DNA of 64,000 nt from assembly GCF_964204645.1 (NCBI RefSeq), contig NC_134028.1:19413653-19477652 (forward strand), read 5' to 3'. The translations under genes and the position numbers were made by a program. Below, one piece after another: positions 5,109 through 40,410 of the stretch. Origin of the DNA: Tubulanus polymorphus (Eukaryota; Animalia; Nemertea). The notes beneath the pieces were generated by a model that was not told where the DNA came from, did no database searches, and saw nothing but the letters and a program-made list of their open reading frames with translations. Positions within the stretch are counted from its first letter, which is position 1, and each line of letters starts with the position of its first letter.

Positions 5109-5293
5109 GCGATAGTTTACCTAGCATACGCTCGCGTAATGCTGAAAAACGGCTTTTATGGCCCGTCACGTGGCGCCACCTGCTGTATTTTGATATGCTA
5201 ATGAGCAGGTGATGACGTCACTGTAACGTTTTCCGAGCGTCCGCGGAGCGGATTTTTCAGCATTACGCGAGCGTATGCTGAGTAAACTATCGC
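5109..5293. repeat. Small palindromic MITE-like element
   Basis: GCGATAGTTTACCTAGCATACGCTCGCGTAATGCTGAAAA is mirrored by TTTTCAGCATTACGCGAGCGTATGCTGAGTAAACTATCGC. Confidence 0.75.
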
Positions 5294-8207: not shown

Positions 8208-8432
8208 TATTGGGGTGATAAATTAGTAGTTTGCATAGAGGGAGGGAAGCCAGAGTTCAGGGCAGTGGCTGAAGTTAGTAAACAACCTACGTAGATGCTT
8301 ACGTCGCACACAAGACACTGAATAGAAGATAGGTGAAAGTGAAGTGAGTATCTGCGTAGGGTTGCTGGTTATAGCGGCAGCCTTGAGCTCTGGTATGGCT
8401 AGGAAGTAAACAAGTAATAAACTCGTGACGTA

Positions 8433-8699
8433 AGTAATAGGGATAATAGGCTTTCAAGCCAAAGGTCGAACGGTCGAGCTCGTAAAAAATGAAAAACATA
8501 AAAATAATTACAATTTCTACTTGAATTACTCGCGAAACTCATAAAAATGAAAAATTAATTCTCACACGCTCGAATTAATTTTTCATTTTTATGAGTTTCA
8601 CTCCTAATTCAAGTAGAAATTGTAATTATTTTTATGTTTTTCATTTTTACTCACCCGCCCGTTCAACCTTTAGCTTGAAAGCCTATTATCCCTATTACT
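8433..8699. repeat. Left terminal hairpin of the Polinton (267-bp imperfect palindrome)
   Basis: Begins AGTAATAGGGATAATAGGCTTTCAAGC and ends GCTTGAAAGCCTATTATCCCTATTACT; arms pair to a loop near 8560-8572. Confidence 0.92.
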
Positions 8700-8868
8700 C
8701 TTAAAATATTCATATATATGAATAAAATATAAATCATTGAACTTCTAAAATCAATTTTAATAAAAAATATAGTATTAAAATGGAAGCAAATAAATACTAC
8801 TGCCCAACATGTAATATCGATATAGATAAATCCCAAAAAGCAAGACACAATAAAACTAGAACACATTT
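8700..8868 (+). repeat. Inner TIR segment, inverted copy of 25641-25794, including the first ~29 codons of PolB
   Basis: ATG at 8780 reads MEANKYYCPTCNIDIDKSQKARHNKT, the same as the PolB N-terminus. Confidence 0.92.
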
Positions 8869-9737
8869 GTTTTTAATCCAGTTGGCGGACGTTAGCGAAT
8901 CACAAATCTCATAATTTACAAGTATCAACGCGCTTTTTAGATGTTTCTGGACAATTAAGCTCTAACCAATCAAAAGTCTCATAATTCGCAAGTCTCAACA
9001 CACTTGTTCTAGATGTTTCTGAGCATAGAATAGTATAAATAGGCGCGCACATCAGACGCTTAACAGAGCTATAGAATAAATCTATAAATTCACAGCTGTT
9101 ACAGCTGTTACTATAACGCCGAGATATTATGAATCATAATCAGAAACGTGTAGAATATTCTAGAAAGGCGCGCCGGAACTAGATGACGTGGCATAATCAA
9201 CGACGTGTTCATTCTAGAAATCACCCCCGGAAATGGATATACGCTGTAATATTGTGCTCAGGATATTCTATCTTTCGAAACGAAATAAGGAGTTTATAGT
9301 TTACAATTATAAATCTAAATGTAAGTACTGTTTGTTGTAGTTGTTAGGGCTATTAAATATGAAACCTTTAGATATATTTAAGCGTATTTAGTATATCTTT
9401 TAGATAGTTAGAGTTACCGCTAATATCTTTTAGATTAATAAAAAGTCATACGCATCAAGAAGCGATAGAGAAACTCAAGACTGAGGAATCAACAGCAATG
9501 GATATCAAACCAATAGAATCACCAAAAGATCGAAGAAGAAATATAAGAATTTCAAAAACATTAAGACTCCAATGATTAAGTTTAACATTTATTGATGTAG
9601 TTAAATATTTACCAGCAATTGAAAAAATGTTTGTAATTATAAATTGTATTTATAGAAATCAAATGATGTATTAGAAGAAATGACTGAACAACTTGTATAA
9701 TGTATTGTGTAAATCTGATTTGTGAATTTTTATGTTC

Positions 9738-10056
9738 AGTCGTTTCTATTATGTTTAACGCATGCGCATTGATCAAAACCGGCCATAAATGGCCGCATGT
9801 GACACATGTAACGCATGTGACGAGAACATGAATGCGTTTGAATTTTCTATATTCAGTTGTTTCTATTTTACAGAATTTATAGAATGAATATACAATTATG
9901 ATTAACACATGTGCATTAAGCAAAACCGGCCATAAATGGCCGCATGTGACGCATGTAACGCATGTGTTGTTTCTATTTTACAGAATTTATAGAATGAATA
10001 TATAATTATGATTAACGCATGCGCATTAAGCAAAACCGGCCACAAATGGCCGGCCG
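9738..10056. repeat. ~110-bp direct repeats in the Polinton non-coding region
   Basis: Three copies of TTAACRCATGYGCATT....AAAACCGGCCAYAAATGGCCG (near 9755, 9902, 10012). Confidence 0.8.
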
Positions 10057-10339
10057 CTTGTATTATTTAGATATCAAGGAATCGAAAAAACTTATCAAAA
10101 GCAGCGAGGAATGAAAAAGGATGACGTTGGTCGAAGAAATGGAAGAGGATTCTAAAATTATTAACCAATTTAGTAAAAAATATTTTTATTTATTTATATT
10201 TTGAATAGATCCGAATAGAAATTCTTTAAATTCAAATAGCTAGTATCAGTAGTCAATACTAGAATTCTTTAGCTTTAACTATCTAGTATCATTTGAAGAA
10301 TACTTATAATACTATTTTTATTAAATTTCTCTAATATAA

Positions 10340-10945
10340 ATGTCAAAGAAATCGAATAAGAATAATATTAAAGTTGAAAAAACTTTGGAAGATTTAGGTC
10401 TAACAGATGATAATGATAATGTGGCAACTAAATGTGATAATAAAATTGATAGTGATATTGATTATGAATACTATTTATATTGTAAGCATCATCTAGAACT
10501 ATTGATTGCGAGTGGAAAAACTAAAGAGTTTATTGGTAAAACAATAACTTTTCAAGAATTAGATAATATGAATAAAGAAAAAGTAATAAAATATTTTAAG
10601 ATTTATGAAGAGGCAAGATTATCTAAAATAAATGATTCTATTTCTAATGGTATTGTCAAATGTTATTCAAAGTTATGTAACCAGTTAATACCAATTGATG
10701 ATGACAATAAATTATATAATGATTTGAAAAATGACTATTTAGTTATGACTGAATTACAAAAATGGGTTGGATATGCTTCATTTCAATTAGGATCGGTTAT
10801 GACATTAATTTCTACTGGTGTCATAACATTTTCGAATATCAAACCTATGGAATATAAATCAGGTAAGAACGAAACAGATGTACTACAACCAAACAGTGAA
10901 ACAGAAAATGAATCAGAACAAAAATTAACTAAAATAAATGAGTGA
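10340..10945 (+). CDS. Polinton hypothetical protein (201 aa)
   Basis: Intact ORF with TAAATG start, overlapping the next gene; function not recognised. Confidence 0.8.
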   Translation: MSKKSNKNNIKVEKTLEDLGLTDDNDNVATKCDNKIDSDIDYEYYLYCKHHLELLIASGKTKEFIGKTITFQELDNMNKEKVIKYFKIYEEARLSKINDSISNGIVKCYSKLCNQLIPIDDDNKLYNDLKNDYLVMTELQKWVGYASFQLGSVMTLISTGVITFSNIKPMEYKSGKNETDVLQPNSETENESEQKLTKINE

Positions 10946-11309
10946 TGGAGTTAAGAAAAAGGCTAGATCCGAGAAACAAATTAAATGGGCAAGAGAATTA
11001 GGTAAAAGATCTTCAGAATTAAAAAAAGCTAAGAAAAAGAAATTAACTGATATAAATGAATCACCTGATGGTGCCGTACAGCACCCACACGGTGGTATTG
11101 ATTCAAATAATAATCCATCTAATTCTTCTAATGCTGGAAGTAATTATAAATTATATATTACAATTGGATTAGTAACACTTATTATATTATCCGGTGTAAT
11201 ATATAAATCAAAATTCAAATCTGATGATAAAGATGATTCCGATGATAAACCTATCATACCAGAAAATAAATCAAATGAAACTAAATCTAAATTATTATTA
11301 ATGGATTAA
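10938..11309 (+). CDS. Polinton small protein, basic N-terminus and one predicted TM helix (123 aa)
   Basis: LYITIGLVTLIILSGVIY hydrophobic segment; TAAATG start. Confidence 0.75.
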   Translation: MSDGVKKKARSEKQIKWARELGKRSSELKKAKKKKLTDINESPDGAVQHPHGGIDSNNNPSNSSNAGSNYKLYITIGLVTLIILSGVIYKSKFKSDDKDDSDDKPIIPENKSNETKSKLLLMD

Positions 11310-11312
11310 AAT

Positions 11313-12428
11313 ATGATGAAAAAAGAACAATATTTAAGAGCGTTATATTACAACCCAGAAAGTGAAGTATCATATTCTAACGTTTCAGAATTATGGAATA
11401 AAATTAAATCTGATAATAGCAATGGTGCCGTACGGCACCCACACGGTGATATAAAATATAGTGAATTAAAATCATGGTTACAAAATCAACCCACATATCA
11501 AATTCATAAAAAGATGGATAAAAAATATTTAACAAGAAAAGTAATGGTTTCATATATTGACCAACAATGGCAAGCTGATTTAATTGATATGAAAAACTTA
11601 GAAGAATATAACAAAGGATATTTTTGGATACTGAATGTTATAGATATATTCAGTAGATACGCATGGAGTATCCCGATTAAAAATAAAACTGGTATAGAAG
11701 TTACAAATTCTTTCAAATTAATATTTAAAGAAGCTATCCCAGATAAAATACAATTTGATGAAGGTAAAGAATTTTATAACAAACATTTTAAAAAACTATT
11801 AACTGATAACGATGTAGAATATTTTTCAACACATTCAGATAAAAAAGCATCTGTTATAGAAAGATTTAATAAAACATTGAAAACTAGAATGTGGAAATAT
11901 TTTACTGCTAACGAAACATATAAATATATCAATGTATTAGATGATTTAGTTAAAGGTTATAATAATTCAAAACATAGTTCTATAAATATGAAACCTATAC
12001 AAGCTAGAAAAGAAGAAAATTCAGAAATAGTTTGGAATAATTTATATGGAGCATTTGTTACACATGATTTTGGAGAACCTAAATTTAAAATAGGACAACA
12101 TGTTAGAATTTCTAAATATCGAAAAACATTTTATAAAGGTTATACCCCAAATTTTACTGAAGAAATATTTAAAATTAAAAAGATAATATTAACTAAACCA
12201 TTTGTTTATAAATTGTTTGATTTAAAAGATGAAGAAATATTAGGTTATTTTTATGAACAAGAATTATCATTAGTACCAAATCCAGATGAAATAGAATACA
12301 AAATAGAAAAAGTATTGAAAACAAAAACATTACGCGGTAAGAAATATTCTCTGGTGAAATATAAAGGATATGATGATAAATTTAATGAATGGATTTTATC
12401 TAGTAAAATTAAAAGAATAAATGAATAA
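11313..12428 (+). CDS. Retroviral-like (rve/DDE) integrase with C-terminal chromodomain-like region
   Basis: WQADLIDM, IDIFSRYAW, IQFDEGKEF, ASVIERFNKTLK; C-terminal YKIEKVLK...LVKYKGYDDKFNEWI. Confidence 0.95.
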   Translation: MMKKEQYLRALYYNPESEVSYSNVSELWNKIKSDNSNGAVRHPHGDIKYSELKSWLQNQPTYQIHKKMDKKYLTRKVMVSYIDQQWQADLIDMKNLEEYNKGYFWILNVIDIFSRYAWSIPIKNKTGIEVTNSFKLIFKEAIPDKIQFDEGKEFYNKHFKKLLTDNDVEYFSTHSDKKASVIERFNKTLKTRMWKYFTANETYKYINVLDDLVKGYNNSKHSSINMKPIQARKEENSEIVWNNLYGAFVTHDFGEPKFKIGQHVRISKYRKTFYKGYTPNFTEEIFKIKKIILTKPFVYKLFDLKDEEILGYFYEQELSLVPNPDEIEYKIEKVLKTKTLRGKKYSLVKYKGYDDKFNEWILSSKIKRINE

Positions 12429-13035
12429 AGATTTATTTATATTTGAACCTCATAATATGTTAGTTACTGGAGTTACAAATTGTGGTTAAACACACTTCAT
12501 ATTATATTTATTAGAAACTATTTATAAGAATCATTTCGATAATATAATATTATTCTGCCCAACTTATGAAATGAATGAAACGTATAATAGAGATATAGTT
12601 TTTAAAGATAAAAAGTTTATTATATTAAATTCTAAAACAGTGAAAGATAATTTAGATAATTGTATAAAAATTGCATTAGATATTTATAAAGGATCAAATA
12701 CATTATTTATTATTGATGATTGCGCAAATTTACATGATTCTAAAATTAGAGAAAGTGAGTTATGTTATTTAGCTTTCTCTGGTAGACATTTTGGGATAAC
12801 AACATGGGTTTTAAATCAGAAATATAATTCAATTGTGAAAGATTTTAGAGAGAATATAAGATTTCTAGTTTTATTCTACAACAAAGATAGAAAATCTATG
12901 CAACAATCATTGGAAGAAAATCAAATTATACCTCCTGAATTACATGATGAATATATGAATAAATTAAAGAATAATAAAGGTTCCAAATTATTAATGAGAT
13001 TACAATTTCCATATGAATATAAATTTATAAAATAA
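12421..13035 (+). pseudogene. A32/FtsK-like genome-packaging ATPase with a stop codon in Walker A
   Basis: ATG 12421 reads MNKDLFIFEPHNMLVTGVTNCG*THF (TAA at 12487-12489), in frame with ORF 12571-13035 carrying LFIIDD (Walker B) and GRHFGITTWVLNQKY. Confidence 0.9.
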
Positions 13036-13079
13036 CTATTTCTATATCTATGTATTAGATATGTATTAGATATGTATTA

Positions 13080-13626
13080 TATACCTCCCCCTAATGTCTT
13101 TATTATCTTTAGTACTTTAGTACTTTTAGTACATAAAGAATAAATCTTTATTTTATTAATACTTTAAAAATAAAATAGAACTACTAAACTACTAAAGATA
13201 ATATAGACATAACAAACACACATAGATTTATTATTACTGAATCAAATATATATAATAAATATGTTAGATAAATAAATCTATGATATTTATTACATCTATA
13301 TGTGTTTGTTATATCTTTATTATATTTTATACTTTTAGTACATAAAGAATAAATATATAAATAATTTTTATAAATGATAAATCTATGATATATATAATAA
13401 ATATGTGTGATAAATAGATTTAATTATTGAAACAGTAATATATAAAATCCATCAGATGAATAAATATAATTATTGAAACAGTGTTATATATATATTTATG
13501 TCTTTATTGTCTTTAGTAGTTTAGTAGTTTTAAAAATAATTTTATTCACTACTTATAAAATAAAGATTTATTCTTTATGTACTAAAAGTACTAAACTACT
13601 AAAGACAATAAAGACACAAGGGGTAT
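13080..13626. repeat. Internal AT-rich inverted repeat between the two convergent gene blocks
   Basis: ~13085-13212 pairs with ~13497-13626 (e.g. TTTAGTACTTTTAGTACATAAAGAATAAATCTTTATTTTA vs TAAAATAAAGATTTATTCTTTATGTACTAAAAGTACTAAA). Confidence 0.8.
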
Positions 13627-13643
13627 TATATTCATATTTTAAA

Positions 13644-14843
13644 TTACTTTTCTGATTCTAATTCTGAAAACAATTTGCTCCATGCATCTCTTAATTCTTG
13701 CGATCTTCTTTCACCTAACAGTTTAAAATGATAACCATTACCATTCAAACCCTTAACCCAGAATTCATAAGTTAAATAAATATATTGGTTTAATTTGTCT
13801 TCACTTATATTTTTATATTCATTTTTTGCTTCATTTCTTATTTTATTTATAACATCCTGTGAAAAATCTTCATAACTGTAGTATTGAATTATTTCATCAA
13901 AGTTATCACTTATATTATCATTAGCAGCAACTTTTTTCAATTCTGTTAAAAAATCTCTACTTTTAAATTTGATGAAATAATATATACCCCAATAATTATT
14001 TAGATCAATTTTTATAATCGCCCGATAAATTTTAATATCTGATAATACTTGTTTTGGATTATTTCTTACATAATCGATAAAAATTGATCTATATAATTTC
14101 CTATGATCATTATTTTCGATATCAAAAAATACACTTGGTACTCTATAAAGGATATTTAAATCAGCAGCTTTTATTGTATGTTCAAAAGAATTATCATGTT
14201 TAATTCTATCTTTAGGTAATACAACAACATTACACTTTTCACATATATTTCTTTCTATATTATCCAAATGTATCTGTGTTAATTTATGCTTTGAAAAATT
14301 ACTACGACTTGTATATTTATCACATTCTTCACAATATTTATCTTCTTTAACATTATCATTATCAATTTCACTATCATTATCATTATTCTTATTTTTCTTA
14401 TGCTTGAGTGAATTAAGATGAGTTGCCCAATTCTTATAACTTTTATACTGTTTACATACGTCACAATATTTTTCATTTATCTTTTTTGATTCAATATCAT
14501 ATGTTGTAGAGGGTATATTATAAGATATATATCCTGTTACATCTTCTATTTTATATTCAATATCATTCTTATCTTCTACTTTAGTTTCAATATTATTACT
14601 ATCTTCTATTTTAGTTTCAATATTATCTTCTATTTTATATTCAATATCATTCTTATCTTCTATTTTAGGTTCAATATTATCTTCTATTTTTGTTTCAATA
14701 TTCTTATCTATTTTACTTATTCTATATTTGAATTGATTAAAGTAATCTCCAAAATACTTACTGTATTCATCATAAGGTAATATATAATATATATCTGATA
14801 TCATTTCACTTGGAGTTTGTATTTCATATATTCCACCTTCCAT
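13644..14843 (-). CDS. Zinc-finger protein (three CxxC...H...H fingers) with KIED repeats (399 aa)
   Basis: YCDVCKQY...HLNSLKH, YCEECDKY...HKLTQIH, CEKC...HDNSFEH; tandem IE(T/Y)KIED units. Confidence 0.8.
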   Translation of the reverse strand: MEGGIYEIQTPSEMISDIYYILPYDEYSKYFGDYFNQFKYRISKIDKNIETKIEDNIEPKIEDKNDIEYKIEDNIETKIEDSNNIETKVEDKNDIEYKIEDVTGYISYNIPSTTYDIESKKINEKYCDVCKQYKSYKNWATHLNSLKHKKNKNNDNDSEIDNDNVKEDKYCEECDKYTSRSNFSKHKLTQIHLDNIERNICEKCNVVVLPKDRIKHDNSFEHTIKAADLNILYRVPSVFFDIENNDHRKLYRSIFIDYVRNNPKQVLSDIKIYRAIIKIDLNNYWGIYYFIKFKSRDFLTELKKVAANDNISDNFDEIIQYYSYEDFSQDVINKIRNEAKNEYKNISEDKLNQYIYLTYEFWVKGLNGNGYHFKLLGERRSQELRDAWSKLFSELESEK

Positions 14844-14873
14844 TTAATATAAGATTTTTTATTAGTTAAAATT

Positions 14874-16121
14874 TTAATACATAACACTATCTAATTGTGA
14901 ATTTACAATATTTAATTGCGCGTCAGATATAATATAAATATGCATTTTAAAATTTTTGATTCCTTTATTCTTTGTCATGAATAATTGTATTCCATCTTTA
15001 GTGTTCTGTAGTTTTTTTCCAGAACCATGTAATGAATTATCCTCTGTTGTTCTAAAATCTAACCATAATGCATATTTATTACCGGTATAATAATCAATTT
15101 GATTAATATTACAATTTTCAAATGATTTTACTTTTTCATTCATAAAATGTTTTTTAATTTCTACCCATTGATCAATCATTCTCATTCCTTGACAAAATAT
15201 TTTATTCGCTATTCCTTCGATAGTTATTTCTACTTTTGTTATTTCAGGATTATAATAATTATCAACATTTATTGCACCATTAGAATATGTTGCAATAGTA
15301 AAAAATATTAATATACCTTTAATAGATCTTCTAGGAAAGTTAATATTCTCATTAATTATTTCATCATTTGCATTAATAGTTACAGTTTTAAATTTATCAA
15401 TATAATCATATAATAATGAAAACCCTTGATTGTATTGAGTTTGAATTATACTTGAAATATTTTCATCAGTTACTGTATCATATTCTAAACATATATTCGA
15501 TAATTTATAACTCATATCTTTATTAACGCTAGATAATACAATTTCATTTACAGGAGCAAATGTTATCTCAAATATAATATCTTCTTGAATTGCGTATTTA
15601 TATAAAGGTGCATTATTATTTATCAATTCAAAGTCTAATGGAATTTTATATTTGCTTCCATATATACTTTTTATCAATTTATCTACATCATTAGTTAATA
15701 TTGCGCTATTAGCTTCTGATCTTAATTTATTTTGGTTTTCTGATTGAATACCCTGAAATATCATATTATTTCTATTTTCTTTAGTTAACCATAAATCTTT
15801 ATAATGTGAAAATAAATTATAATCATCTAATGAGAAAACTGTTTCTGGACCAATCTTTATTGTTAACTTTTTAATCAAATATCTTCCAACATTATCAACA
15901 ACATAATTATTATTATTACCGATTACTTTTATATCGGCTGATAAATAAATACTATTTGGAACATAAAAAGTATTTTGTGTTAATCGAGGGATTCTAACAT
16001 ATAAAGTTTCATCGGGATTAATATTTGAAGGGTTATGAGTAATTATATGATGTGATCTTTCTGCTTTAATAGCATTAGATATTCTATGATTCTTCGAAGG
16101 ACTTATATAACTCCCACTCAT
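14874..16121 (-). CDS. Probable major capsid protein (double jelly-roll type)
   Basis: 415 aa, beta-strand-rich pattern, motifs NPSNINPDETLYVRIP, NICLEYD, SIKGILIFF, ALWLDFRT...LHGSG that I associate with invertebrate Polinton/adintovirus capsids; fold not verified. Confidence 0.78.
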   Translation of the reverse strand: MSGSYISPSKNHRISNAIKAERSHHIITHNPSNINPDETLYVRIPRLTQNTFYVPNSIYLSADIKVIGNNNNYVVDNVGRYLIKKLTIKIGPETVFSLDDYNLFSHYKDLWLTKENRNNMIFQGIQSENQNKLRSEANSAILTNDVDKLIKSIYGSKYKIPLDFELINNNAPLYKYAIQEDIIFEITFAPVNEIVLSSVNKDMSYKLSNICLEYDTVTDENISSIIQTQYNQGFSLLYDYIDKFKTVTINANDEIINENINFPRRSIKGILIFFTIATYSNGAINVDNYYNPEITKVEITIEGIANKIFCQGMRMIDQWVEIKKHFMNEKVKSFENCNINQIDYYTGNKYALWLDFRTTEDNSLHGSGKKLQNTKDGIQLFMTKNKGIKNFKMHIYIISDAQLNIVNSQLDSVMY

Positions 16122-16162
16122 TTATTTAACAAAAAAAATTAATTATTTATTTTTAATCATGT

Positions 16163-17644: not shown

Positions 17645-17660
17645 TTACATAATAAAAAAA

Positions 17661-19049
17661 TTAAAATTTAAAATATAATATTCCTCCGATTACAATTCCT
17701 ATACAAGTTATAGCTAATTTAGTATTTTCATGTGATTTATTATCATCATTTAGTTTAATTATATCATGTTGAATTTTATCAGTTTTTATATTTTCTGATG
17801 TATTATAATCTTTTATTTTAGAATCATTAACCAATTTAATATTCTTAGTTTTAGTTTCAGTTGATTGAATATGTTTTTTATTTTTTTCACCTTCCATTAA
17901 TTTTGGAGCAGTAATAATCTTTTTATTTATATCATTTAACCCAAATGAATTATTTATTGTTGCAGTTTTAATTAGATTATTATAACCAATTATATTTCCC
18001 ATCTTCAATACTAAATCATTAGAAATAATTAATAGATTAGGGCCTATACAATAATTAAGTCTTACATGAGATTTATCTAAATAATTTTGATATCTTATAA
18101 TGTTTTCTGGAATCGATCTATTTTTATCATTATGTATGGAATCTTCAAATAATACTTTAAATTGTTTTTGTGTATCGAATGATGTATTCAAATTTCGAAT
18201 TATCGGTGATCTTGTTTCAACTTGCGCACCTAAAATACAAATTAAATAAGTTCTAATAGATTGATTTATTCTTTCTATACCTGATTTAGTAAAACCTTCA
18301 CTATTTTCTAAAATAAAATAAACCCAACCATTATTGTTTTCTTGTTTTAAATGATCATAAAATTTCGGTAATTTATTGAAATTTAATGTTTCTAAATCCT
18401 TTGTTTCTATTTTACCATAACCTAATTCATTATTATAGATATTATAAAAACTATTAGATGGTATGGGAAGTGCACAATATTCTGCAATCTTTCTAGGGCA
18501 TGGAAGTGATCTTATTGTTCCAATTTTTGTTCTAAAATCAGAATTATTTATATCTATATTAAATTCATTGCAAATTTTATAAAACTTTGATAAATTAATA
18601 TTATTATCTAATTCTTTGAAATACCTAGATCCTGGTAAAGCGCACTCTAATTCATTTAATATTATTCTGATTTGAAAGTATGTATGAAATCTAAATAAAC
18701 TTTGAATTAATTTATATTTAGAATTATTCAAATGATCATTCCAACTAATTCCACATCCTGTTGTTGCACAATAAACAGCAAAATTTAATTGATTCTGCCA
18801 ATACTTCATATTAGATTTTAATAACCATTGTTTTTCATCTTTCAATTTTTTAAAATTAATTAAATATACATGAAATATATTTTCCATCTTTGCATTAAAA
18901 TTATTAGTTTCAGTAACATAAATATATAAATCAATTAATGAATCTAAAACTTCATTTCTATATGTAATATCTTCATTAAAATCTATTGCTGGAATATTAT
19001 ATTTAATTGATTTATTATATTGGAAAGCTTTTGGAAAACTATCTACCAT
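17661..19049 (-). CDS. Polinton hypothetical protein with C-terminal membrane anchor (462 aa)
   Basis: Intact ORF; WQNQLNFAVYCATTGCGIS and SIRTYLICILGAQ blocks; terminal LAITCIGIVIGGILYF. Confidence 0.8.
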   Translation of the reverse strand: MVDSFPKAFQYNKSIKYNIPAIDFNEDITYRNEVLDSLIDLYIYVTETNNFNAKMENIFHVYLINFKKLKDEKQWLLKSNMKYWQNQLNFAVYCATTGCGISWNDHLNNSKYKLIQSLFRFHTYFQIRIILNELECALPGSRYFKELDNNINLSKFYKICNEFNIDINNSDFRTKIGTIRSLPCPRKIAEYCALPIPSNSFYNIYNNELGYGKIETKDLETLNFNKLPKFYDHLKQENNNGWVYFILENSEGFTKSGIERINQSIRTYLICILGAQVETRSPIIRNLNTSFDTQKQFKVLFEDSIHNDKNRSIPENIIRYQNYLDKSHVRLNYCIGPNLLIISNDLVLKMGNIIGYNNLIKTATINNSFGLNDINKKIITAPKLMEGEKNKKHIQSTETKTKNIKLVNDSKIKDYNTSENIKTDKIQHDIIKLNDDNKSHENTKLAITCIGIVIGGILYFKF

Positions 19050-19065
19050 TTATATAACTAAAAGA

Positions 19066-19500
19066 TTAATAATCAACTAATTCTTTTAATAATTTATCTT
19101 GTTCTTCAACTGTTATATGACCATTTAAACTTATTATATAATCTAGTGTGTTCTTTAATTTATTAATTTCTTTTATATTAGTTTTAATTTTTTCTTTATT
19201 ACTTTTTATATTTAATTTTGAACTTATACCAGTTAAAACACTTGAACTTAATCCTAATACACCAATTGATATAGCTAAAGGTGTTAATGGACTGAATATT
19301 GCTAAAAATGTTATTACAGAACTAATTGTAACCGAACCACTTATAATCAAATAATATATAATTTTACTTTTTAAATATTTTTTCTTTTTTATCTTTAAGT
19401 CACTTTCAAATTCTAATATTTGTTTTTCTAAATATGTTTTTAATTTAGTTTTATTTATATCATGAGGAATAATATCAATACTATCAACTTTATCTTCCAT
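19066..19500 (-). CDS. Two-TM small membrane protein (144 aa)
   Basis: Two adjacent hydrophobic helices between coiled segments. Confidence 0.75.
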   Translation of the reverse strand: MEDKVDSIDIIPHDINKTKLKTYLEKQILEFESDLKIKKKKYLKSKIIYYLIISGSVTISSVITFLAIFSPLTPLAISIGVLGLSSSVLTGISSKLNIKSNKEKIKTNIKEINKLKNTLDYIISLNGHITVEEQDKLLKELVDY

Positions 19501-19519
19501 TTATTTAGAATAAAAATTA

Positions 19520-19942
19520 CTAATTAGTAAACTTATAAGCAACAAATATAACAATAACTGTTCCACCTAAAATCCATATTATTTCATATTTCTGTTGTTC
19601 TTTACTTGGGGTATAATAATCTGATAATTTAGGTTTGTATAGATGTAATTTTTCTTTATTTGTTACTGCGTTATATAAACTCATTGCATCATCAACTGAT
19701 TGAAAATCTCTATGTGAAATCTTCTGATCATATAATTCTTTATTGATGTAATCCATATAGTTTTGTCTCTTTTCTCTATATTCTTCTGCAGCTTTATTGT
19801 ATTTCTCTAACGCTAAGTTATGTCTTCTCTGTTCTCCTAATGAACTATTTTTATCAATATGTTTAAATAAATAACCACCACCAGTAAATGCTAAAGCGTT
19901 AACAATTGCCGATCCTATAATAGTTATAATTGCAGAAGCCAT
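19520..19942 (-). CDS. Small membrane protein with hydrophobic N- and C-termini (140 aa)
   Basis: MASAIITIIGSAIVNALAFTGGGYLF ... IIWILGGTVIVIFVAY. Confidence 0.78.
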   Translation of the reverse strand: MASAIITIIGSAIVNALAFTGGGYLFKHIDKNSSLGEQRRHNLALEKYNKAAEEYREKRQNYMDYINKELYDQKISHRDFQSVDDAMSLYNAVTNKEKLHLYKPKLSDYYTPSKEQQKYEIIWILGGTVIVIFVAYKFTN

Positions 19943-19966
19943 TTATTTAGCAAAAAAATTATGCAT

Positions 19967-20187
19967 TTATATGGGAGGAATATATTTTTGTTTTTCCAAA
20001 TAATCAATAGTTAAATTAGATAAAGTAACTGCTAATGTTAACTTTAAAATATCACTATATCAAATCTATCAACATTAACACTTCCCATTTTGAATACTTT
20101 TTTTAATACCATTGAATAACCAACCGTTCCAACTGATAGTAATGCGCCATTATATAATCCAGTTATTATCCACTTATTATCACTCAT
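19967..20187 (-). pseudogene. Small hydrophobic ORF absent from the ORF track, apparently frameshifted near 20055
   Basis: TAAATG start at 20187 reads MSDNKWIITGLYNGALLSVGTVGYSMVLKKVFKMGSVNVDRFDI, then continues in another frame as DILKLTLAVTLSNLTIDYLEKQKYIPPI*; fills the gap between neighbours. Confidence 0.65.
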
Positions 20188-20190
20188 TTA

Positions 20191-20529
20191 TTAATCAAAA
20201 AAATTACTATCTTCAAAATATTTAGTTAACTTATTTATGATTAATTCAACATTTATTTTATTACTAGTTTTATGATTATCATATATTTTGGATAATATGT
20301 TTTTAATATCTTCAATAATTCCATCTTCATTTAATTCATAATATTCTAAAGGTGATTTAATTAAATCAATTACTTTTTCTATATTATACTTTTCTTTATC
20401 AATCATTGATGCATTGTTAAATGATTTACTTTTTATATCAGTAATTACATCATTTAGTTTAATTCTCATTTCTTTACCATGTTTAAAATCAAATCCAAAA
20501 CATATACTCGGTCCAACAGTTATATTCAT
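20191..20529 (-). CDS. Polinton hypothetical protein (112 aa)
   Basis: Intact ORF, TAAATG start, tightly packed. Confidence 0.7.
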   Translation of the reverse strand: MNITVGPSICFGFDFKHGKEMRIKLNDVITDIKSKSFNNASMIDKEKYNIEKVIDLIKSPLEYYELNEDGIIEDIKNILSKIYDNHKTSNKINVELIINKLTKYFEDSNFFD

Positions 20530-20545
20530 TTATATAATGAAAAAA

Positions 20546-21307
20546 TTACTCTTTACATCTTATAACTAATTCATAAATTACAGGAAAATTATTTAAATCA
20601 ATTAAGTATCCATTATGATTTCTAATTTCTAATCTAAAATTATTAAAATGAGGAATGCAAGGTTTGAAATCACATTCTGTTAAATTATAATTTATTTGCG
20701 TTCCAAATTCTTTAACATTCTTCAATGGTAAAATGTTTAGTAAACCAGAATTACAAGTTATATCTTTAGTTGCTTCGAATGTTTTTGTAGGATCGATTAA
20801 ATTGCAATAAATATAAAAATGTGTGTAAGGTATTAAGTTTGGTGTAGTAGCGTCAATATTTGTAAAAGATCTATCTGGAATAATTCCTAACAGTTTAGCT
20901 ATAGGTTTTTTTACCATAAATTTATGTTTTTCACTATTAGACAACCTTATCTTTATTCTATCAGAACTCTCATTTTTTAAAAATATAATACTAAACCCAG
21001 AACTACTACCTAATTTGTGCCAGGCTTTTCTATTAATTTCTTGTGCTAATGTATCTAAATTATATAACCCTGGTTTTAAATATATATAGACCCATTCATT
21101 TTTATTTTTATTAAAAACTAAAAAGGCTCTATGTTCAATAGTTTTATTCGATATATTGTAAAAAGAATTACATAAACTTATATTTACTAATTTCAAATCT
21201 ACACAATTCTTGAATTCTCTATCTAATTGTACTAATAAATTATGTGATTTATAATTTGTAAGTTTTCTAGAATCAACAAATATTCTGTATTCTTTTAATT
21301 CCGCCAT
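20546..21307 (-). CDS. Probable minor capsid (penton, single jelly-roll) protein
   Basis: IFVDSR, LKPGLYNLDTL, FYIYCNLID, C-terminal FRLEIRNHNGYLIDLNNFPVIYELVI pattern typical of Polinton/virophage pentons. Confidence 0.78.
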   Translation of the reverse strand: MAELKEYRIFVDSRKLTNYKSHNLLVQLDREFKNCVDLKLVNISLCNSFYNISNKTIEHRAFLVFNKNKNEWVYIYLKPGLYNLDTLAQEINRKAWHKLGSSSGFSIIFLKNESSDRIKIRLSNSEKHKFMVKKPIAKLLGIIPDRSFTNIDATTPNLIPYTHFYIYCNLIDPTKTFEATKDITCNSGLLNILPLKNVKEFGTQINYNLTECDFKPCIPHFNNFRLEIRNHNGYLIDLNNFPVIYELVIRCKE

Positions 21308-21324
21308 TTATTTTACATATTTTC

Positions 21325-21666
21325 TTATTCGAAATCTATTTCATGGTGCCCTTTTTCATTCTTACCTTTGTATACGAAATAGAAATCTCCAGAACATAAT
21401 TCTTCTAGATCTTCACTTGATAATCTATGAAATCTATCTGGTAAATAAGTTCTGAATTTATATGTATTTCCTTTTAATCCTTCATATTCTAAATGAATTA
21501 CTAATTTATCTCCATATTTATTAGTAATTGTTTCAATGTTAGTAATTAAATATTTCTTGTGAATTGTTAACTCAGTTAGTTTTTTAAATTTATAATCTAC
21601 AGATTTGACGCTTGAAGTATCTTTAATTCTATCTAAGAATTCACTGTGTACTTGTTTACTCTCCAT
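21325..21666 (-). CDS. Small beta-rich protein next to PolB, possibly OB-fold/ssDNA-binding (113 aa)
   Basis: FKKLTEL...KYLIT...TNKYGDKLVIHL...YLPDRF...YKG; the function is inference. Confidence 0.6.
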   Translation of the reverse strand: MESKQVHSEFLDRIKDTSSVKSVDYKFKKLTELTIHKKYLITNIETITNKYGDKLVIHLEYEGLKGNTYKFRTYLPDRFHRLSSEDLEELCSGDFYFVYKGKNEKGHHEIDFE

Positions 21667-21694
21667 TTATTATACAAATTTTTATTGAAATTGA

Positions 21695-24600
21695 TTAACA
21701 CGTTAGAATCCTTTTCATAATCTCATTTTCTTTTGTTTCTTCTCTTTTGAATTTTATATATTCATCTAAATTGCAACCATAGGCGACTGTGCGGATTCCA
21801 TCATCTAAAATATATCTTTTATCATCAAATGGGTTTAGACTTATCTTCTCTATTTCTTCAATATACATTTCATGATCTTCAGATCTTAAACATTTCATCT
21901 TATGTTTTCTAACTTCTTCATTAAATATACAATTGATGTAATCTTTGAAATGAATATTCTTTTCAACAACGCTTTTGGTAATTCCTTTTAACTTTTTAGC
22001 TTCATGTTCTTTAGTTTTATATGAATACATTTTAGATCTAATACCAATGAACTCTATCATTTCTTCACCACCTAATTCATCCTTAAACTTCCCAGGAACT
22101 TTTTTATTATCATTGCTAAACAATTCATGATTTTTAGGATAGTTACTGAAATCAAAATGATGTTTTAATGTTTTTAAATCATCAGTTATGTTATCAGTTT
22201 TTATCTTTAATATGTAAGAATCTGTATCAAAATATAAGATTTCTATGTGTTTTTCCCCAAAATGGGGTTGTAGTATATTATAGTAAAATTTATACATTAG
22301 GAATTTTGATAATTTTAAAACTGCAGCTCCAACATAAATCGGTTTGTTAAATTTCATACTTGTTCTTCTCATTTTAACTGCAGCTAAATGTTCATCAAAT
22401 ATTCTGTTACCTATAAACTTAGGATATGATTGTAAATGCCTTATCCTTTTACCATTACTAACTAACTCAATATCATTTCTATTTCTAATATTTTCACAAG
22501 TCTTACCATAGAACGCATTATTCATTAACTTGAAGAAGTCTTTTTCAAAATCAGTTTTAGATTTAGTTCTCTGTGTAGTATTAAAATCTATATATTTTTC
22601 TAACCATTTAGATTGACTGAATGAAATATATCTATGTACTTTTTTAAATATCATTCCTTGTCTCAAATAAAACTTCAACATTCTATAATGCACAACGTAA
22701 TTATATTTATCTTCTTGAGTTACCATTAACTTTTCAGTATGAATATGATTTTCGGGTTTAATTCTTTTTTGATAATTTGATAATTCTTCATGTTTAACAG
22801 TTTTATGTTCGGGACAATATGCTAGATTTCTAGATTTGAATTTAATATTTTCAGGGTATTCTAAATCTACAACGAAGAAGTAACCAGTATCTGAATCATC
22901 TGCAATATCTAGGATTCTTTTCTTCCAATCAAATTTATCAATTTGTAAAACTTCAGTTATTTCAAACATCCCATAAGGTTGTGGTTCCATTATTGCCCAA
23001 CCATAAAGATTATTTGCATCTATGTATAATAATTTATATCCAGGATTATCATTTACATTGAAATATCTATCACCCAATACACCTGAAACACCTCCTCTTA
23101 TAGATTTTTCAAATAATAGTAATTGATCTATATTTGTTAACAAATCCATTTTTATATCTGTAAATTTTAATCCACAATCCCATGTTAAACCTGGACTAGA
23201 ATAACAAAGACATGGATCAATGTTAAAATATTTTAGGTTTACATCTCTAAACCTTTCGAATATATCGGTTAATAATAATACATCTGATTTTAAATATAAA
23301 TCTACTAATTGCCCATGATTTTCTATTTTGAAATGATTCCAAATATTCAATGTTCTATTATAGACTTCATCTTTAACATATTCATTTTTTAATTCATCAT
23401 AAAATTGTTCTTTCAATAATTCAGTTATTTTAAAATCATTATGATTTTTATAGAAAGAATATGGAATTGCTCCTTTATATCTCATTAATTTAAAATCATC
23501 ATTATTTGGATAGTGTTGCTTTAATATTTTTAATTCATCATCAACTAATGATTTTGATAAGTTATCTAATGAACTACTTAAAAATCTATACGAATCTATA
23601 AATCTTAAACACCCAAATTGGAATGATATATAATTCTCAGATGTTTTAGCTAACATTCTAAATTTATAAGTTGGTATTTTATCTTTTGATCTATTTGAAT
23701 TTAATATTTCTGTTTCATTATTGATTTTTTCTATTTTATAACATAGCTGTTTGATAAATAAATGTGCATCATATCCTGATAGATTATGAAATATAACTGG
23801 TACAAAGTTAATTTTCTTAGCTTGTAAGTTACAATTCTCATGTGCAGCGCCTCTAAACTTTCCATTCAAATGATCATGGTCTCTTACTTTTTTATCTTTA
23901 TAATTAAATATCTTTTCACAATAATAACATTTATCTGCAAACGCAAATTCTTCTTTATCTTCTTCTGTCATTATAATTTCTATATTTTTATTTAACTTTT
24001 CATTAAATCTTATTTCATATTCAATTAATAAGTCACAAAAATGATTGATAACATTTTCATTTCTATAATGATAATATTCACTTTTAATTAGTTCTGGATA
24101 ATTAGATTTAATATATAACCCGAAAGCTGCAGCTGATTGATGAATCTTTTTAATTGTATTTGTTATTGGTGGTTCTTCTGAATAATCACTTTCATTAGAA
24201 TTTAATTTCTTTCTTTTATAATATATATCTTTTCTATCTTTATCTGTTAATTCTTTATTTAATGATTCAAAATCTCCATATATTACAAATGGTACTTTAT
24301 TTTTGTAATCATATTTTTTGAATTCTAATATTTTATCTTTTTCATTTGGTAAAACTAATTTACAATAATCATGATTATCACATAGTTGTTTATGATTTAA
24401 TAATGTACTTTCATTACTAAATTTATGTAAACATTTTCTACATAGATATATTTTATTATGGTGATCACTTTCTGTTCTAAAAAATAAATCTATTTGTTTA
24501 ATCCACATATAATGATTCTCATAATATAGTATATCTATAACATCATTTGAATCATAATCTTTTGATAGGTATAAAGGTTCTAATGTATAATGTTTTATGT

Positions 24601-25729
24601 TGTTACCTTTTGTATTTGGTAATTTGATTAAATCAAATACATTTATCTTTAAATTATTATCTCTTTCTATTTTTGGGATATTTTTAATTCTAACAGGATA
24701 CTTATCTATCTTATAATTACTTTCAAATGGTTTATAATGAGTTAATCTAAAACTATGTTGTTTATAATCTTCAACTGGGTGTAAACAACTTATAATTGTC
24801 CATAGAAAACATTTATTGTCAAAATTTTGTATATTTATTACACCATTAGTTTTAAATGGTAATTTAATATAACTTGTTCCATTTATACTATCATCTTTAT
24901 AATATGATAAATTATTTTCATCAATTGGTTTTGATTTAGTTAACTTATTATATTTTGTGTTATAAACATGTAAAGTTATAAATATTATCTCATCAAATAT
25001 TAAACCAGATCCTTCAAAATATTTCTCTTCTATTTTAGTTTTTATTTCATTATAACATTTATTTAATTTATCATCTATATGTTGTTTAGATATAATATGT
25101 TGTGAATGAGAATTTATATTATATATTGGTTTATCTTCAGATTTTATAAACTTTACTTTAACTGATATACTTATCTTAGGATATTCAACATCTGTAATTA
25201 TTTTTATTATTTCTTTCATATTTTCTAAATGTTTTTTATTTTCTTCTAATGTTTTTCCTTTATGAAATTTAAACTCGATAGCTGCTGGACCAATATCACT
25301 TTTAAATGCTTCGGTTATCTCTATATCTTTTTTATTATCTAATGAATTAATATAATTTCTTACATCTTCCATATATGGTCTTTTATTGTTTAATTTATTT
25401 TTTATTCTTTTAATTGTCTTCTGTTTCTTATCGTTATCATTATCAAAATAATCTTCACCTAAAATATCATTATTCTTATTTCTAATATGACTTATAGATT
25501 TTAAATGTTCTTTATAATATCTTTTATCACTGAATGATTGATTACATGTATCACATTTATATGTTTCCTTTTCATTCTTTAATTCTTCTAATTTAGTTTC
25601 TAATATATCATCTTTATATTCTAATTTCAATTTATTTTCTAAATGTGTTTTAGTTTTATTGTGTCTTGCTTTTTGAGACTTATCTATATCGATATTACAT
25701 GTTGGGCAGTAGTACTTATTTGCTTCCAT
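21695..25729 (-). CDS. polB: Protein-primed family B DNA polymerase with N-terminal C2H2 fingers and an endonuclease VII-like domain (1344 aa)
   Basis: Exo motifs YGDFES, FHNLSGYD, YLKSDV; pol motifs YIDANNLYG, KLMNNAFYGK, YFDTDS; CYYC...RDHDHLNGKFRGAAHENCN. Confidence 0.95.
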   Translation of the reverse strand: MEANKYYCPTCNIDIDKSQKARHNKTKTHLENKLKLEYKDDILETKLEELKNEKETYKCDTCNQSFSDKRYYKEHLKSISHIRNKNNDILGEDYFDNDNDKKQKTIKRIKNKLNNKRPYMEDVRNYINSLDNKKDIEITEAFKSDIGPAAIEFKFHKGKTLEENKKHLENMKEIIKIITDVEYPKISISVKVKFIKSEDKPIYNINSHSQHIISKQHIDDKLNKCYNEIKTKIEEKYFEGSGLIFDEIIFITLHVYNTKYNKLTKSKPIDENNLSYYKDDSINGTSYIKLPFKTNGVINIQNFDNKCFLWTIISCLHPVEDYKQHSFRLTHYKPFESNYKIDKYPVRIKNIPKIERDNNLKINVFDLIKLPNTKGNNIKHYTLEPLYLSKDYDSNDVIDILYYENHYMWIKQIDLFFRTESDHHNKIYLCRKCLHKFSNESTLLNHKQLCDNHDYCKLVLPNEKDKILEFKKYDYKNKVPFVIYGDFESLNKELTDKDRKDIYYKRKKLNSNESDYSEEPPITNTIKKIHQSAAAFGLYIKSNYPELIKSEYYHYRNENVINHFCDLLIEYEIRFNEKLNKNIEIIMTEEDKEEFAFADKCYYCEKIFNYKDKKVRDHDHLNGKFRGAAHENCNLQAKKINFVPVIFHNLSGYDAHLFIKQLCYKIEKINNETEILNSNRSKDKIPTYKFRMLAKTSENYISFQFGCLRFIDSYRFLSSSLDNLSKSLVDDELKILKQHYPNNDDFKLMRYKGAIPYSFYKNHNDFKITELLKEQFYDELKNEYVKDEVYNRTLNIWNHFKIENHGQLVDLYLKSDVLLLTDIFERFRDVNLKYFNIDPCLCYSSPGLTWDCGLKFTDIKMDLLTNIDQLLLFEKSIRGGVSGVLGDRYFNVNDNPGYKLLYIDANNLYGWAIMEPQPYGMFEITEVLQIDKFDWKKRILDIADDSDTGYFFVVDLEYPENIKFKSRNLAYCPEHKTVKHEELSNYQKRIKPENHIHTEKLMVTQEDKYNYVVHYRMLKFYLRQGMIFKKVHRYISFSQSKWLEKYIDFNTTQRTKSKTDFEKDFFKLMNNAFYGKTCENIRNRNDIELVSNGKRIRHLQSYPKFIGNRIFDEHLAAVKMRRTSMKFNKPIYVGAAVLKLSKFLMYKFYYNILQPHFGEKHIEILYFDTDSYILKIKTDNITDDLKTLKHHFDFSNYPKNHELFSNDNKKVPGKFKDELGGEEMIEFIGIRSKMYSYKTKEHEAKKLKGITKSVVEKNIHFKDYINCIFNEEVRKHKMKCLRSEDHEMYIEEIEKISLNPFDDKRYILDDGIRTVAYGCNLDEYIKFKREETKENEIMKRILTC

Positions 25730-25794
25730 TTTAATACTATATTTTTTATTAAAATTGATTTTAGAAGTTCAATGATTTAAATGAATATTTTAAG

Positions 25795-26190
25795 AGTAAT
25801 AGGGGTAATAGGCTTTCATATCAAAGGTTTAATGATCGAGTTCATTAATAACATATATTAAAAAACTATAATATATTTTCATAACCGCGTGCATTTCAGT
25901 TGAATAATAGAATAATTATTATCATTTGAATATATTTGATTATTTGAATTTGTGTATTGTAATTAAATCAATTGGTCGCGGAGCGGAGCGGTAGCGAAGT
26001 GGAGCGACCAATTGATTTAATACAATATGCTTTTTATATTATTGATATCTTAGAATAAATATTTAGTTTTGATATAAAATGCACGCGGTTATGAAAATAT
26101 ATTATAGTTTTTTAATTACTTTTAATATTTTGTTTTTTAATGGGCTCGACCGTTCGACCTTTGGTATGAAAGCCTATTACCCCTATTACT
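25795..26190. repeat. Right terminal hairpin of the Polinton (396-bp imperfect palindrome)
   Basis: Begins AGTAATAGGGGTAATAGGCTTTCATA, ends TATGAAAGCCTATTACCCCTATTACT; inner stem ATTAAATCAATTGGTCGC / GCGACCAATTGATTTAAT around a GGAGCGGAGCGGTAGCGAAGTGGA loop. Confidence 0.92.
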
Positions 26191-29459: not shown

Positions 29460-30015
29460 TATTGGGGTGATAAATTAGTAGTTTGCATAGAGGGAGGGAA
29501 GCCAGAGTTCAGGGCAGTGGCTGAAGTTAGTAAACAACCTACGTAGATGCTTACGTCGCACACAAGACACTGAATAGAAGATAGGTGAAAGTGACGTGAG
29601 TATCTGCGTAGGGTTGCTGGTTATAGCGGCAGCCTTGAGCTCTGGTATGGCTAGGAAGTAAACAAGTAATAAACTCGTGACGTATAACATATGTAGAAGT
29701 ATACGTCACGAGTAACATGAAATAAGATAAAAAGGGAGGGTCAGCACAGTAAGGGGGAGAGAGATGCTAGAGTGGCGGAGAAGCCTAAAAATACGAGCTG
29801 TAGGAAGGATTAAGAATTGTGCGGGAAAATAAAGAAAGAACGTAGACCCACGAGAAGAGTTGTTATTATTCCGGAGTCAGAGGGATATCACTTATCGGAT
29901 TAATCGGAACCAACAACGACAACACGAGGGGAGAACGCAACGTGGCCGCCACAACAATTGGTTGAGAAACTCAACTCCACAACATTGTTGGAGAACCGAA
30001 AGCAACCCCACAACA
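29460..30015 (+). repeat. Intact 3' LTR of the non-autonomous LTR element
   Basis: Direct repeat of 8208-8432 joined to 26197-26528, about three differences. Confidence 0.95.
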
Positions 30016-30322
30016 TTCCCGTCTCGACCCTTCTAACCTGTCTCTAGTCTCTACACAGTCCCGTAGACACCATGTTCCCGTCTCGACCCTTCTAACCTGT
30101 CTCTACTCGGTACACAGTCCCGTGGACACTATGTTCCCGTCTCGACCCTTCAAATCTGTCTCTACTCTCTACACAGTCCCGTGGACCCTATGTTCCCGTC
30201 TCGACCCTTCACACCTGTCTCTACTCTCTACACAGTCCCGTGGACCCTATGTTCCCGTCTCGACCCTTCACACCTGTCTCTACTCTCTACACAGTCCTGT
30301 GGACACCATGTTCCCGTCTCGA
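30016..30322 (+). repeat. 59-bp tandem array, left arm part 2 (~5 units)
   Basis: Resumes in register with the unit interrupted at 8207. Confidence 0.95.
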
Positions 30323-40394: not shown

Positions 40395-40410
40395 CCTGGT
40401 CACGGCACCA
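40393..40410 (-). promoter_or_regulatory. Primer-binding site, complementary to tRNA-His 3' end
   Basis: TGGTGCCGTGACCAGGAT 4 nt after the 5' LTR; overlaps the gag ATG (40394-40392). Confidence 0.75.

What the first reader, a model, noticed from the sequence alone, without database searches (positions are those of the whole stretch)
8433..26190. Both Polinton ends are long hairpins with different interiors, each bounded by the element's own terminal motif
Seen: 8433-8699 (267 bp) and 25795-26190 (396 bp) are each self-complementary, start AGTAATAGGG and end CCCTATTACT, so the ~40-50-bp terminal motif occurs four times. The hairpin interiors are unrelated, although the TIR just inside them (8700-8868 vs 25641-25794) is near identical. 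Known: Polinton TIRs are normally simple near-identical inverted copies. Inference: (a) heterotelomeric hairpin ends used in replication or resolution, possibly with the PolB endonuclease VII-like domain; (b) each hairpin is a mini-element the integrase can move alone, making this a composite element and a source of palindromic 6-bp-TSD MITEs; (c) the inner motif copies are alternative ends.
Basis: partly seen in the sequence, partly recalled or inferred. Interest (0 to 1): 0.82.

Follow-up and report, generated by a model that had tools for sequence, protein, structure and literature searches.

The report
Polinton with two different fold-back ends
A virus-like jumping element (Polinton) ends on each side in its own long DNA hairpin, a different one left and right, and sister copies and a related family have such hairpin ends too; each end likely folds back on itself to restart copying, instead of the two ends pairing with each other as the textbook model assumes.

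Summary
Observation confirmed. The 17,758-bp Polinton (8433-26190) ends in 267- and 396-nt hairpins with unrelated interiors and four copies of the terminal motif. It inserted as one unit: a 6-bp GACGTA duplication flanks the outer ends only, and an empty target lies at 29462-30017. Illumina reads from many sister copies show both hairpin types at 1.1-1.4 times polymerase-gene depth, attached to the inner junction, so solo hairpins are at most a minority. A related family (L004) has a 257-nt hairpin with co-varying arms; another (L001) has part of one; a third (L005) ends plainly. The terminal 26 bp match within each hairpin, while a subterminal box is intact in all 4 outer copies and altered in all 4 inner ones. 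The polymerase keeps terminal-protein and vOTU folds; its endonuclease-VII-like domain also occurs in plain-ended relatives. The near-identical inner 'TIR' is a polymerase-start duplication that many copies lack. Best reading, inferred: each displaced strand's 3' end folds locally to rebuild a protein-primed origin, freeing the two ends to diverge. In print I found only short palindromic tips of protist virophages; this scan noted single hairpin ends in other Polintons.

The parts
8427..8432 (+). Left target-site duplication GACGTA
8433..8699 (.). Left terminal hairpin, 267 nt: simple stem, 10-nt loop, one symmetric internal loop
8433..8479 (+). Left outer motif: 26-nt tip plus intact subterminal box with a GGTCGA direct repeat (8464-8478)
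8653..8699 (-). Left inner motif copy: tip identical to left outer, box altered (5 of 21 positions)
8700..8713 (+). 14-nt inner junction shared by both ends (pairs with 25781-25794); no target duplication here
8727..8868 (+). Inverted duplicate of the PolB upstream region and about its first 30 codons; absent from many sister copies
11313..12428 (+). Retroviral-type integrase with C-terminal chromodomain, 371 aa
   Evidence: rve 7.4e-9, Chromo 2.8e-4
12571..13035 (+). A32-like packaging ATPase, short (154 aa from ATG; open frame 181 aa)
14874..16121 (-). Likely double jelly-roll major capsid protein, 415 aa
   Evidence: feature score 0.97-0.98 to viral clusters, some carrying DJR/Capsid_N; lead only; no Pfam or PDB sequence hit
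21695..25729 (-). Protein-primed PolB, 1344 aa: zinc fingers, terminal-protein fold, vOTU with invariant Cys and His, endonuclease-VII-like insert, polymerase motifs
25795..26190 (.). Right terminal hairpin, 396 nt, branched interior unrelated to the left one
25795..25841 (+). Right inner motif copy: tip identical to right outer, box altered (6 of 21 positions in this copy)
26144..26190 (-). Right outer motif: tip plus intact box; positions 27-47 identical to left outer
26191..26196 (+). Right target-site duplication GACGTA
29462..30017 (+). Empty copy of the host target repeat: left flank joined to right flank with a single GACGTA
   Evidence: same joint in 302 reads

Best explanation
The two hairpins are the true, family-wide ends of an integrated protein-primed Polinton, and each likely works as a local fold-back that rebuilds a double-stranded origin at the 3' end of a displaced single strand. 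Shown: end anatomy, insertion as one unit, presence across sister copies and in a related family, a terminal-protein fold in PolB. Inferred steps: (1) the free linear form is copied by strand displacement from either end; (2) the 3' end of the displaced strand pairs with the inner motif copy 270-400 nt away rather than with the far end; (3) the perfectly paired 26-bp tip serves the terminal-protein/PolB complex as origin and as repair template; (4) the subterminal box is needed only at full duplex outer ends, probably for integration, and its decay in inner copies keeps them from acting as ends; (5) because each end pairs with itself, left and right interiors are free to diverge.
For: Outer-only 6-bp duplication and empty target. 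Hairpin interiors at depth 1243 (left) and 1392 (right) against 978-1110 in PolB; motif depth 4500-4752, about 4.1-4.9 per PolB. Left-type arms leave the inner junction in 423 reads and right-type arms in 335. Relative L004 has a 257-nt AGTAAT...ATTACT hairpin upstream of PolB, -69.4 against shuffle mean -22.7; L001 has an inverted inner motif and a 17-bp stem at its contig start. Over tip positions 1-26, both arms change together at 3, 7 and 9 positions in the three pairwise comparisons, against 0, 2 and 2 changes that break arm identity. Arm mismatches: tip 2 of 78, box 20 of 66, stem 27 of 191. On the strand whose 3' end is the outer arm 8 of 11 motif mismatches are G-T wobbles, on the other strand 1 of 11, and that strand folds better by 11 and 5.4 kcal/mol. 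Whole hairpins (-105 to -116) outweigh the end-to-end pairing of the outer 90 nt (-60). PolB N-terminus models as a little-finger/PAD-like fold (Z 8.3) followed by an OTU fold (Z 7.6), the layout that 10.1101/2024.03.18.585575 assigns to terminal protein and vOTU.
Against: No replication intermediate or free form was observed. L005 (63% PolB identity) ends without a hairpin, so hairpins are not required across the clade, or that assembly collapsed it. Tip/box/stem borders were drawn after seeing the data; box conservation among outer copies (15 of 20 invariant columns against 13 of 26 in the tip) is not significant (p=0.13). At two right-inner box positions most reads carry the outer-type letter (450 of 556 and 412 of 527), so this copy overstates inner decay. 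The wobble bias could partly be CpG deamination and is absent as an energy difference in L004 (-69.4 and -69.5). Over the first 90 nt the right local arms (-56.7) are no stronger than end-to-end pairing (-60). A folded 3' end is also a ready primer, which favours the self-priming rival. L002, L004 and L005 share one assembly prefix, so the relatives may be from one host. Structural Z-scores near 8 are moderate.
Confidence: 0.47

Rival explanations
1. Self-primed (parvovirus-like) copying: the folded 3' end would be extended directly by PolB, giving a covalently closed end that is later opened by a nick or by protein-primed initiation at the embedded motif.
For: A 3'-terminal fold-back with a 5' overhang is a primer-template by geometry (sequence). 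The same model is proposed for palindromic tips in 10.64898/2026.07.28.741278. PolB has an endonuclease-VII-like domain. Strand bias of wobble pairs fits this too.
Against: Nick-and-transfer predicts flip/flop, yet the intact box is outside in all 4 outer copies and reads leaving the inner junction into the left hairpin resemble the inner-type arm (agreement 0.84). No Rep/HUH family among 14 ORFs. The nuclease domain is in 84 of 118 loci including plain-ended ones. Terminal-protein and vOTU folds are retained.
Confidence: 0.2
2. By-product: fold-back template switches during end replication duplicated each terminus once or repeatedly; the hairpins are tolerated and kept alike by intramolecular conversion but do nothing for the element.
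For: Each hairpin is built from the element's own end. Shortened hairpin variants exist (128 reads skip 8535-8598; others skip 300+ nt of the right hairpin). L005 lacks one. Interiors are unrelated between ends and families.
Against: Both ends carry one, across hundreds-fold read depth and in two related families at about 78-81% PolB identity. Mismatches concentrate in the box rather than spreading evenly.
Confidence: 0.18
3. The hairpins act at another step: cruciform or single-strand signal for integrase-mediated excision, or for genome packaging by the ATPase.
For: Integrase and A32-like ATPase are encoded; strong stems at both ends would form on any single-stranded or supercoiled intermediate.
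Against: No direct evidence; the strict tip identity and 3'-strand wobble bias are more simply read as fold-back copying.
Confidence: 0.1
4. Composite element: each hairpin is an independently mobile palindromic mini-element (MITE) that has docked at, or can leave from, the Polinton ends.
For: The host DNA holds several other fold-back elements. Hairpin depth exceeds PolB depth by 10-40% and outer junction reads (2259) slightly exceed inner junction depth (1879-1975). Earlier unchecked scan notes describe palindromic gene-less elements with Polinton ends in other genomes.
Against: No duplication at the inner junctions, which are identical at both ends. No solo copy in the 64-kb window. No dominant loose end at the inner motif border. 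Inner box altered. The excess depth can also come from internally deleted elements.
Confidence: 0.05

Closest known systems
Polintons/Mavericks of animals (PMC8097293, passages read; racket model as summarised in PMC4196379, passages read)
   Same: About 18 kb, AG...CT ends starting AGT, 6-bp duplication, integrase, A32 ATPase, likely DJR capsid, protein-primed PolB.
   Different: Described ends are one pair of near-identical TIRs (46-1447 bp) that pair end to end. Here end-to-end similarity is about 85 nt at 84%, and each end has its own 267/396-nt hairpin with an inner motif copy.
Terminal palindromes of Halocafeteria seosinensis endogenous virophages and PLV subtype 4 (10.64898/2026.07.28.741278, section 7 and passages read)
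   Same: Palindrome directly next to the target duplication; hairpin role in replication proposed, untested.
   Different: There about 52 nt in the figured subtype, within the TIRs and preferentially with non-pPolB replication genes. Here five to eight times longer, unrelated left and right, imperfect in a patterned way, in an element with an intact terminal-protein PolB.
Bombyx mori bidensovirus ends (PMC4938981, passages read)
   Same: pPolB, a common terminal sequence of 53 nt shared by otherwise different inverted repeats, panhandle formation.
   Different: The repeats lie at opposite ends of two separate segments and the paper states there are no terminal hairpins; here each pair lies within 400 nt at one end.
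Heterotelomeric parvovirus hairpin ends and adenovirus panhandle repair (recalled, not read here)
   Same: Different fold-back ends on one genome; 3' fold-back rebuilding a duplex end.
   Different: No Rep/HUH endonuclease found and no sign of flip/flop; integrated with 6-bp duplications.

Membership tests
Polinton/Maverick | 15-20 kb with 6-bp target-site duplication | tested here: met
   17,758 bp; GACGTA both sides; empty site
Polinton/Maverick | 5'-AG...CT-3' termini | tested here: met
Polinton/Maverick | Protein-primed PolB with terminal-protein and vOTU domains | tested here: met
Polinton/Maverick | Retroviral-type integrase | tested here: met
Polinton/Maverick | A32-like packaging ATPase | tested here: met
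   the ORF is short
Polinton/Maverick | Double jelly-roll major capsid protein | tested here: inconclusive
   Atlas feature match 0.97-0.98 with low recognition value; no Pfam or PDB sequence hit
Polinton/Maverick | Adenovirus-like maturation protease | tested here: inconclusive
   no Pfam hit in 14 ORFs of 100 aa or more; not sought by structure
Polinton/Maverick | Terminal inverted repeats | tested here: met
   86 nt at 84% between outer ends, inside the 46-1447 bp range of PMC8097293 but short and imperfect
Halocafeteria-type palindrome-tipped virophage/PLV | Short palindrome within the TIR next to the duplication, mostly with non-pPolB replication genes | tested here: not met
   long, unrelated hairpins; pPolB present
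Rolling-hairpin (parvovirus-type) replicon | Rep/HUH endonuclease | tested here: inconclusive
   no such Pfam family in 14 ORFs; several ORFs stay unassigned
Rolling-hairpin (parvovirus-type) replicon | Flip/flop hairpin orientations | tested here: inconclusive
   fixed orientation in 3 complete hairpins and in the read majority; copies could not be phased
Rolling-hairpin (parvovirus-type) replicon | Covalently closed replicative ends | not testable with these tools
   needs extrachromosomal DNA
MITE | Own target duplication on both sides of the hairpin | tested here: not met
MITE | Large excess of solo copies over the master element | tested here: not met
   depth 1.1-1.4 times PolB; a minority of solos not excluded

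The most novel reading that the evidence does not exclude
A clade of protein-primed Polintons has replaced the end-to-end panhandle with two independent local fold-back origins: each end carries a disarmed inner copy of itself as pairing partner and repair template, making the element heterotelomeric and bridging adenovirus-type protein priming and parvovirus-type hairpin ends.
Probability: 0.45. Interest if true: 0.8.

Novelty: new variant of a known kind. Interest (0 to 1): 0.64.

Why it matters
How Polintons copy themselves has rested on a racket/panhandle model proposed from sequence (summarised in PMC4196379). These ends cannot rely mainly on end-to-end pairing, and they give a short, defined substrate (under 400 nt) on which folded, duplex and inner-copy origins can be compared with a purified polymerase. 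Polintons are considered ancestral to several eukaryotic DNA virus groups, so a natural step from panhandle to hairpin ends bears on how hairpin-ended genomes arise. Practically, TIR screens that demand 100 bp at 98% identity (the setting in PMC11131425) would miss most copies of this family.

Tried and rejected
No whole genome is held, so solo copies could not be counted directly, and the metagenome records behind L001-L005 could not be searched further. PolB alone found no relative in viral or metagenome contigs; an alignment did. Motif patterns found nothing in viral contigs. Assembly artefact rejected: arms are imperfect in a patterned way, Illumina reads cover both interiors, and an independent contig has the layout. 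Endonuclease-VII link rejected. Inner 142-bp repeat as the family TIR rejected. A scan for AG...CT-bounded hairpins hit 4 of 118 loci (L004, L076, L078, L091), but most loci are short contigs without element ends, so this is no prevalence figure. Left interior against L004 interior scored 30 against a shuffle maximum of 29: marginal in AT-rich DNA, not taken as homology. PDB sequence search of the presumed capsid gave nothing. Literature: nine searches found no description of long, unequal terminal hairpins in pPolB Polintons; Kapitonov and Jurka 2006, Starrett 2021 and Repbase entries were not seen, nor any supplement, and could hold such ends.
Full report
Check of the observation. Both stretches start AGTAATAGGG and end CCCTATTACT. 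The left one (8433-8699) matches its reverse complement in 236 of 268 columns, the right one (25795-26190) in 306 of 420. Their DNA folding energies, -105.4 and -107.1 kcal/mol, lie far below 15 dinucleotide shuffles each (means -18.6 and -30.9). The 24-nt motif occurs four times in the window and never in 100 shuffles. The interiors are unrelated (58 of 100 shuffles score as well).

The element. Between the hairpins lie an AT-rich 17 kb with an rve integrase plus chromodomain, a short A32-like ATPase, a 1344-aa PolB with an endonuclease-VII-like insert and a likely double jelly-roll capsid protein (lead only). A model of PolB residues 120-470 from a 46-sequence alignment (pLDDT 84) matches the little-finger domain of Y-family polymerases (Z 8.3, rmsd 2.8, 103 aligned) and viral OTU proteases (Z 7.6, rmsd 3.2, 102 aligned), with Cys and His invariant. 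That is the terminal-protein/vOTU layout in 10.1101/2024.03.18.585575 (passages and section 7 read). Protein priming is therefore likely retained. A Pao retrotransposon nearby suggests an animal host; this is inference.

Where the ends are. GACGTA flanks 8433 and 26190; the inner junctions have no duplication and share the same next 14 nt. The window holds an empty copy of the target: 29462-29684 is 99.6% identical to the left flank and runs straight into a 99.4% copy of the right flank with a single GACGTA. 302 reads show the same joint. The element thus inserted with both hairpins as one unit.

Sister copies. About 12% of one Illumina run (12.9 million reads, 1,934 Mb) was laid on each end at 85% likeness; 13,722 and 13,188 reads were laid, fewer than 1,000 of them 99% alike, so most come from other copies. 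Depth is 978 on average over six PolB bins (1,110 in the last two), 1,243 in the left interior, 1,392 in the right interior, 1,879-1,975 at the shared inner junction, and 4,500-4,752 summed over outer and inner motif positions. That is close to one left and one right hairpin per element, with a 10-40% excess that could be solos or internally deleted copies. By arithmetic the depth means roughly 500 copies per gigabase of genome; genome size is unknown. 1,769 reads leave 8433 and 1,868+391 leave 26190/26191 into mixed flanks (agreement 0.34-0.35), i.e. many insertion sites. 423 reads leave the inner junction into a left-type arm and 335 into a right-type arm. No loose end at 8699/8700 is among the six rows shown (smallest 302; 328 more were not shown). 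Shorter hairpin variants exist. 609 reads leave at 8734 into another left interior against 963 that continue into PolB at 8868, and depth falls to 55-180 after 8874, so the 142-bp inner repeat is a PolB-start duplication of a subset of copies. Limits: short reads, one run, best-place mapping, truncated tables; left/right swaps and phase could not be tested.

Relatives. An alignment search returned 118 loci. Three close families have DNA upstream of PolB. L004 carries a 257-nt hairpin bounded by AGTAAT and ATTACT (-69.4 against -22.7). L001 begins inside a 17-bp stem followed by an inverted inner motif. L005 has the outer motif and no hairpin (-15.6 against -14.5). PolB identity is 79-81% for the first two over residues 450-1300 and 63% for L005 to the alignment's first row. 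L002, L004 and L005 share an assembly prefix, so host independence is uncertain. Distant L082 has a classical 437-bp TIR and no local end hairpin.

Pattern inside the motif. In positions 1-26 the arms of one hairpin change together: 3, 7 and 9 paired changes against 0, 2 and 2 others in the three comparisons (one search shows the same). Positions 27-46 hold a box with a GGTCGA-like direct repeat that is intact in all 4 outer copies and altered in all 4 inner ones. Arm mismatches are 2 of 78 in tips, 20 of 66 in boxes and 27 of 191 in stems (Fisher p=3e-6 and 0.005, borders chosen after inspection). Against this: box conservation among outer copies is not significantly above the tip's (p=0.13), and at two right-inner positions most reads have the outer-type letter. 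On the strand whose 3' end is the outer arm, 8 of 11 motif mismatches are G-T wobbles, on the other strand 1 of 11 (C>T 7 against G>A 1, p=0.02); CpG decay may contribute, and L004 shows no strand energy difference.

Mechanism. The simplest account is a local panhandle. A displaced strand's 3' end pairs with the inner copy, giving a perfect 26-bp duplex tip for protein-primed initiation and repair; the box matters only on full duplex outer ends, probably for integration; and left and right no longer need to match. All of this is inferred (0.47). Self-priming from the folded 3' end (0.20) fits the geometry but predicts flips or closed ends that the limited data do not show; the endonuclease-VII-like domain is in 84 of 118 loci, including L005 and L082, and is known from other pPolBs (PMC10748475, passages read). 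A tolerated by-product (0.18), another step such as excision or packaging (0.10) and mobile mini-elements (0.05) are the remaining rivals.

Comparison with print. Vertebrate Mavericks have TIRs of 46-1447 bp and the text has no hairpin or palindrome (PMC8097293, passages). 10.64898/2026.07.28.741278 (passages and section 7) reports terminal palindromes in protist virophages and one PLV subtype, mostly with non-pPolB genes. Bidensovirus segments share a 53-nt terminus and form panhandles without hairpins (PMC4938981, passages). Passage searches of 10.64898/2026.10.13.758929, PMC11296320, 10.1101/2025.02.07.637071, PMC12747079, PMC11131425 and 10.64898/2026.06.19.733378 showed nothing like this layout in Polintons. 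Original Polinton papers, Repbase and all supplements were not seen. Unchecked notes of this scan report single terminal hairpins of about 200 nt in other Polintons, which suggests the feature recurs; I did not test them.

Verdict. A real, family-wide end architecture of a Polinton, apparently undescribed in the searchable literature for pPolB elements, with function untested: new variant of a known kind, interest 0.64.

Noticed in passing
window 13088-13623: A 536-nt fold-back (CCCC...GGGG, 83-nt arms 88% complementary, -108.6 against shuffle mean -40.4) sits inside the element between the two convergent gene blocks; no clean target duplication; unrelated to the end motif.
   Followed up: partly
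window 5109-5293, 5720-6267, 37626-38216, 47965-48371: Four host fold-back, MITE-like elements unrelated to the Polinton motif.
   Followed up: partly
window 9709-10052: Three direct repeats of about 87 nt containing GGCC palindromes in the element's non-coding left region; possible promoter or binding array.
   Followed up: no
window 8210-8432 + 26197-26530 and 29462-30017: The target is a host repeat at about 400-480 read depth, each copy next to an array of a 59-bp satellite (7662-8207, 30016-30323, 30907-33529); the two copies here are 99.5% alike, so the insertion is likely recent.
   Followed up: partly
L076:7526-7708 and L091:4657-4840: Two distant relatives (33-37% PolB identity) each have a hairpin of about 184 nt just upstream of PolB whose arms begin at or near ACTACTATA; whether these are element ends is unresolved.
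   Followed up: partly
window 8893-8929 and 26171 (reads): Some sister copies carry a further degenerate copy of the motif tip in the left interior or a variant tip (357 reads at 26171); possibly another subfamily or relics of older ends.
   Followed up: no
window 34365-40430: Pao/BEL retrotransposon coding region on the minus strand.
   Followed up: no
window 21325-21666: The 113-aa ORF downstream of PolB lies upstream of PolB in L001 and L004 (64-65% identity), and L002 has integrase downstream of PolB: gene order differs among close relatives.
   Followed up: no
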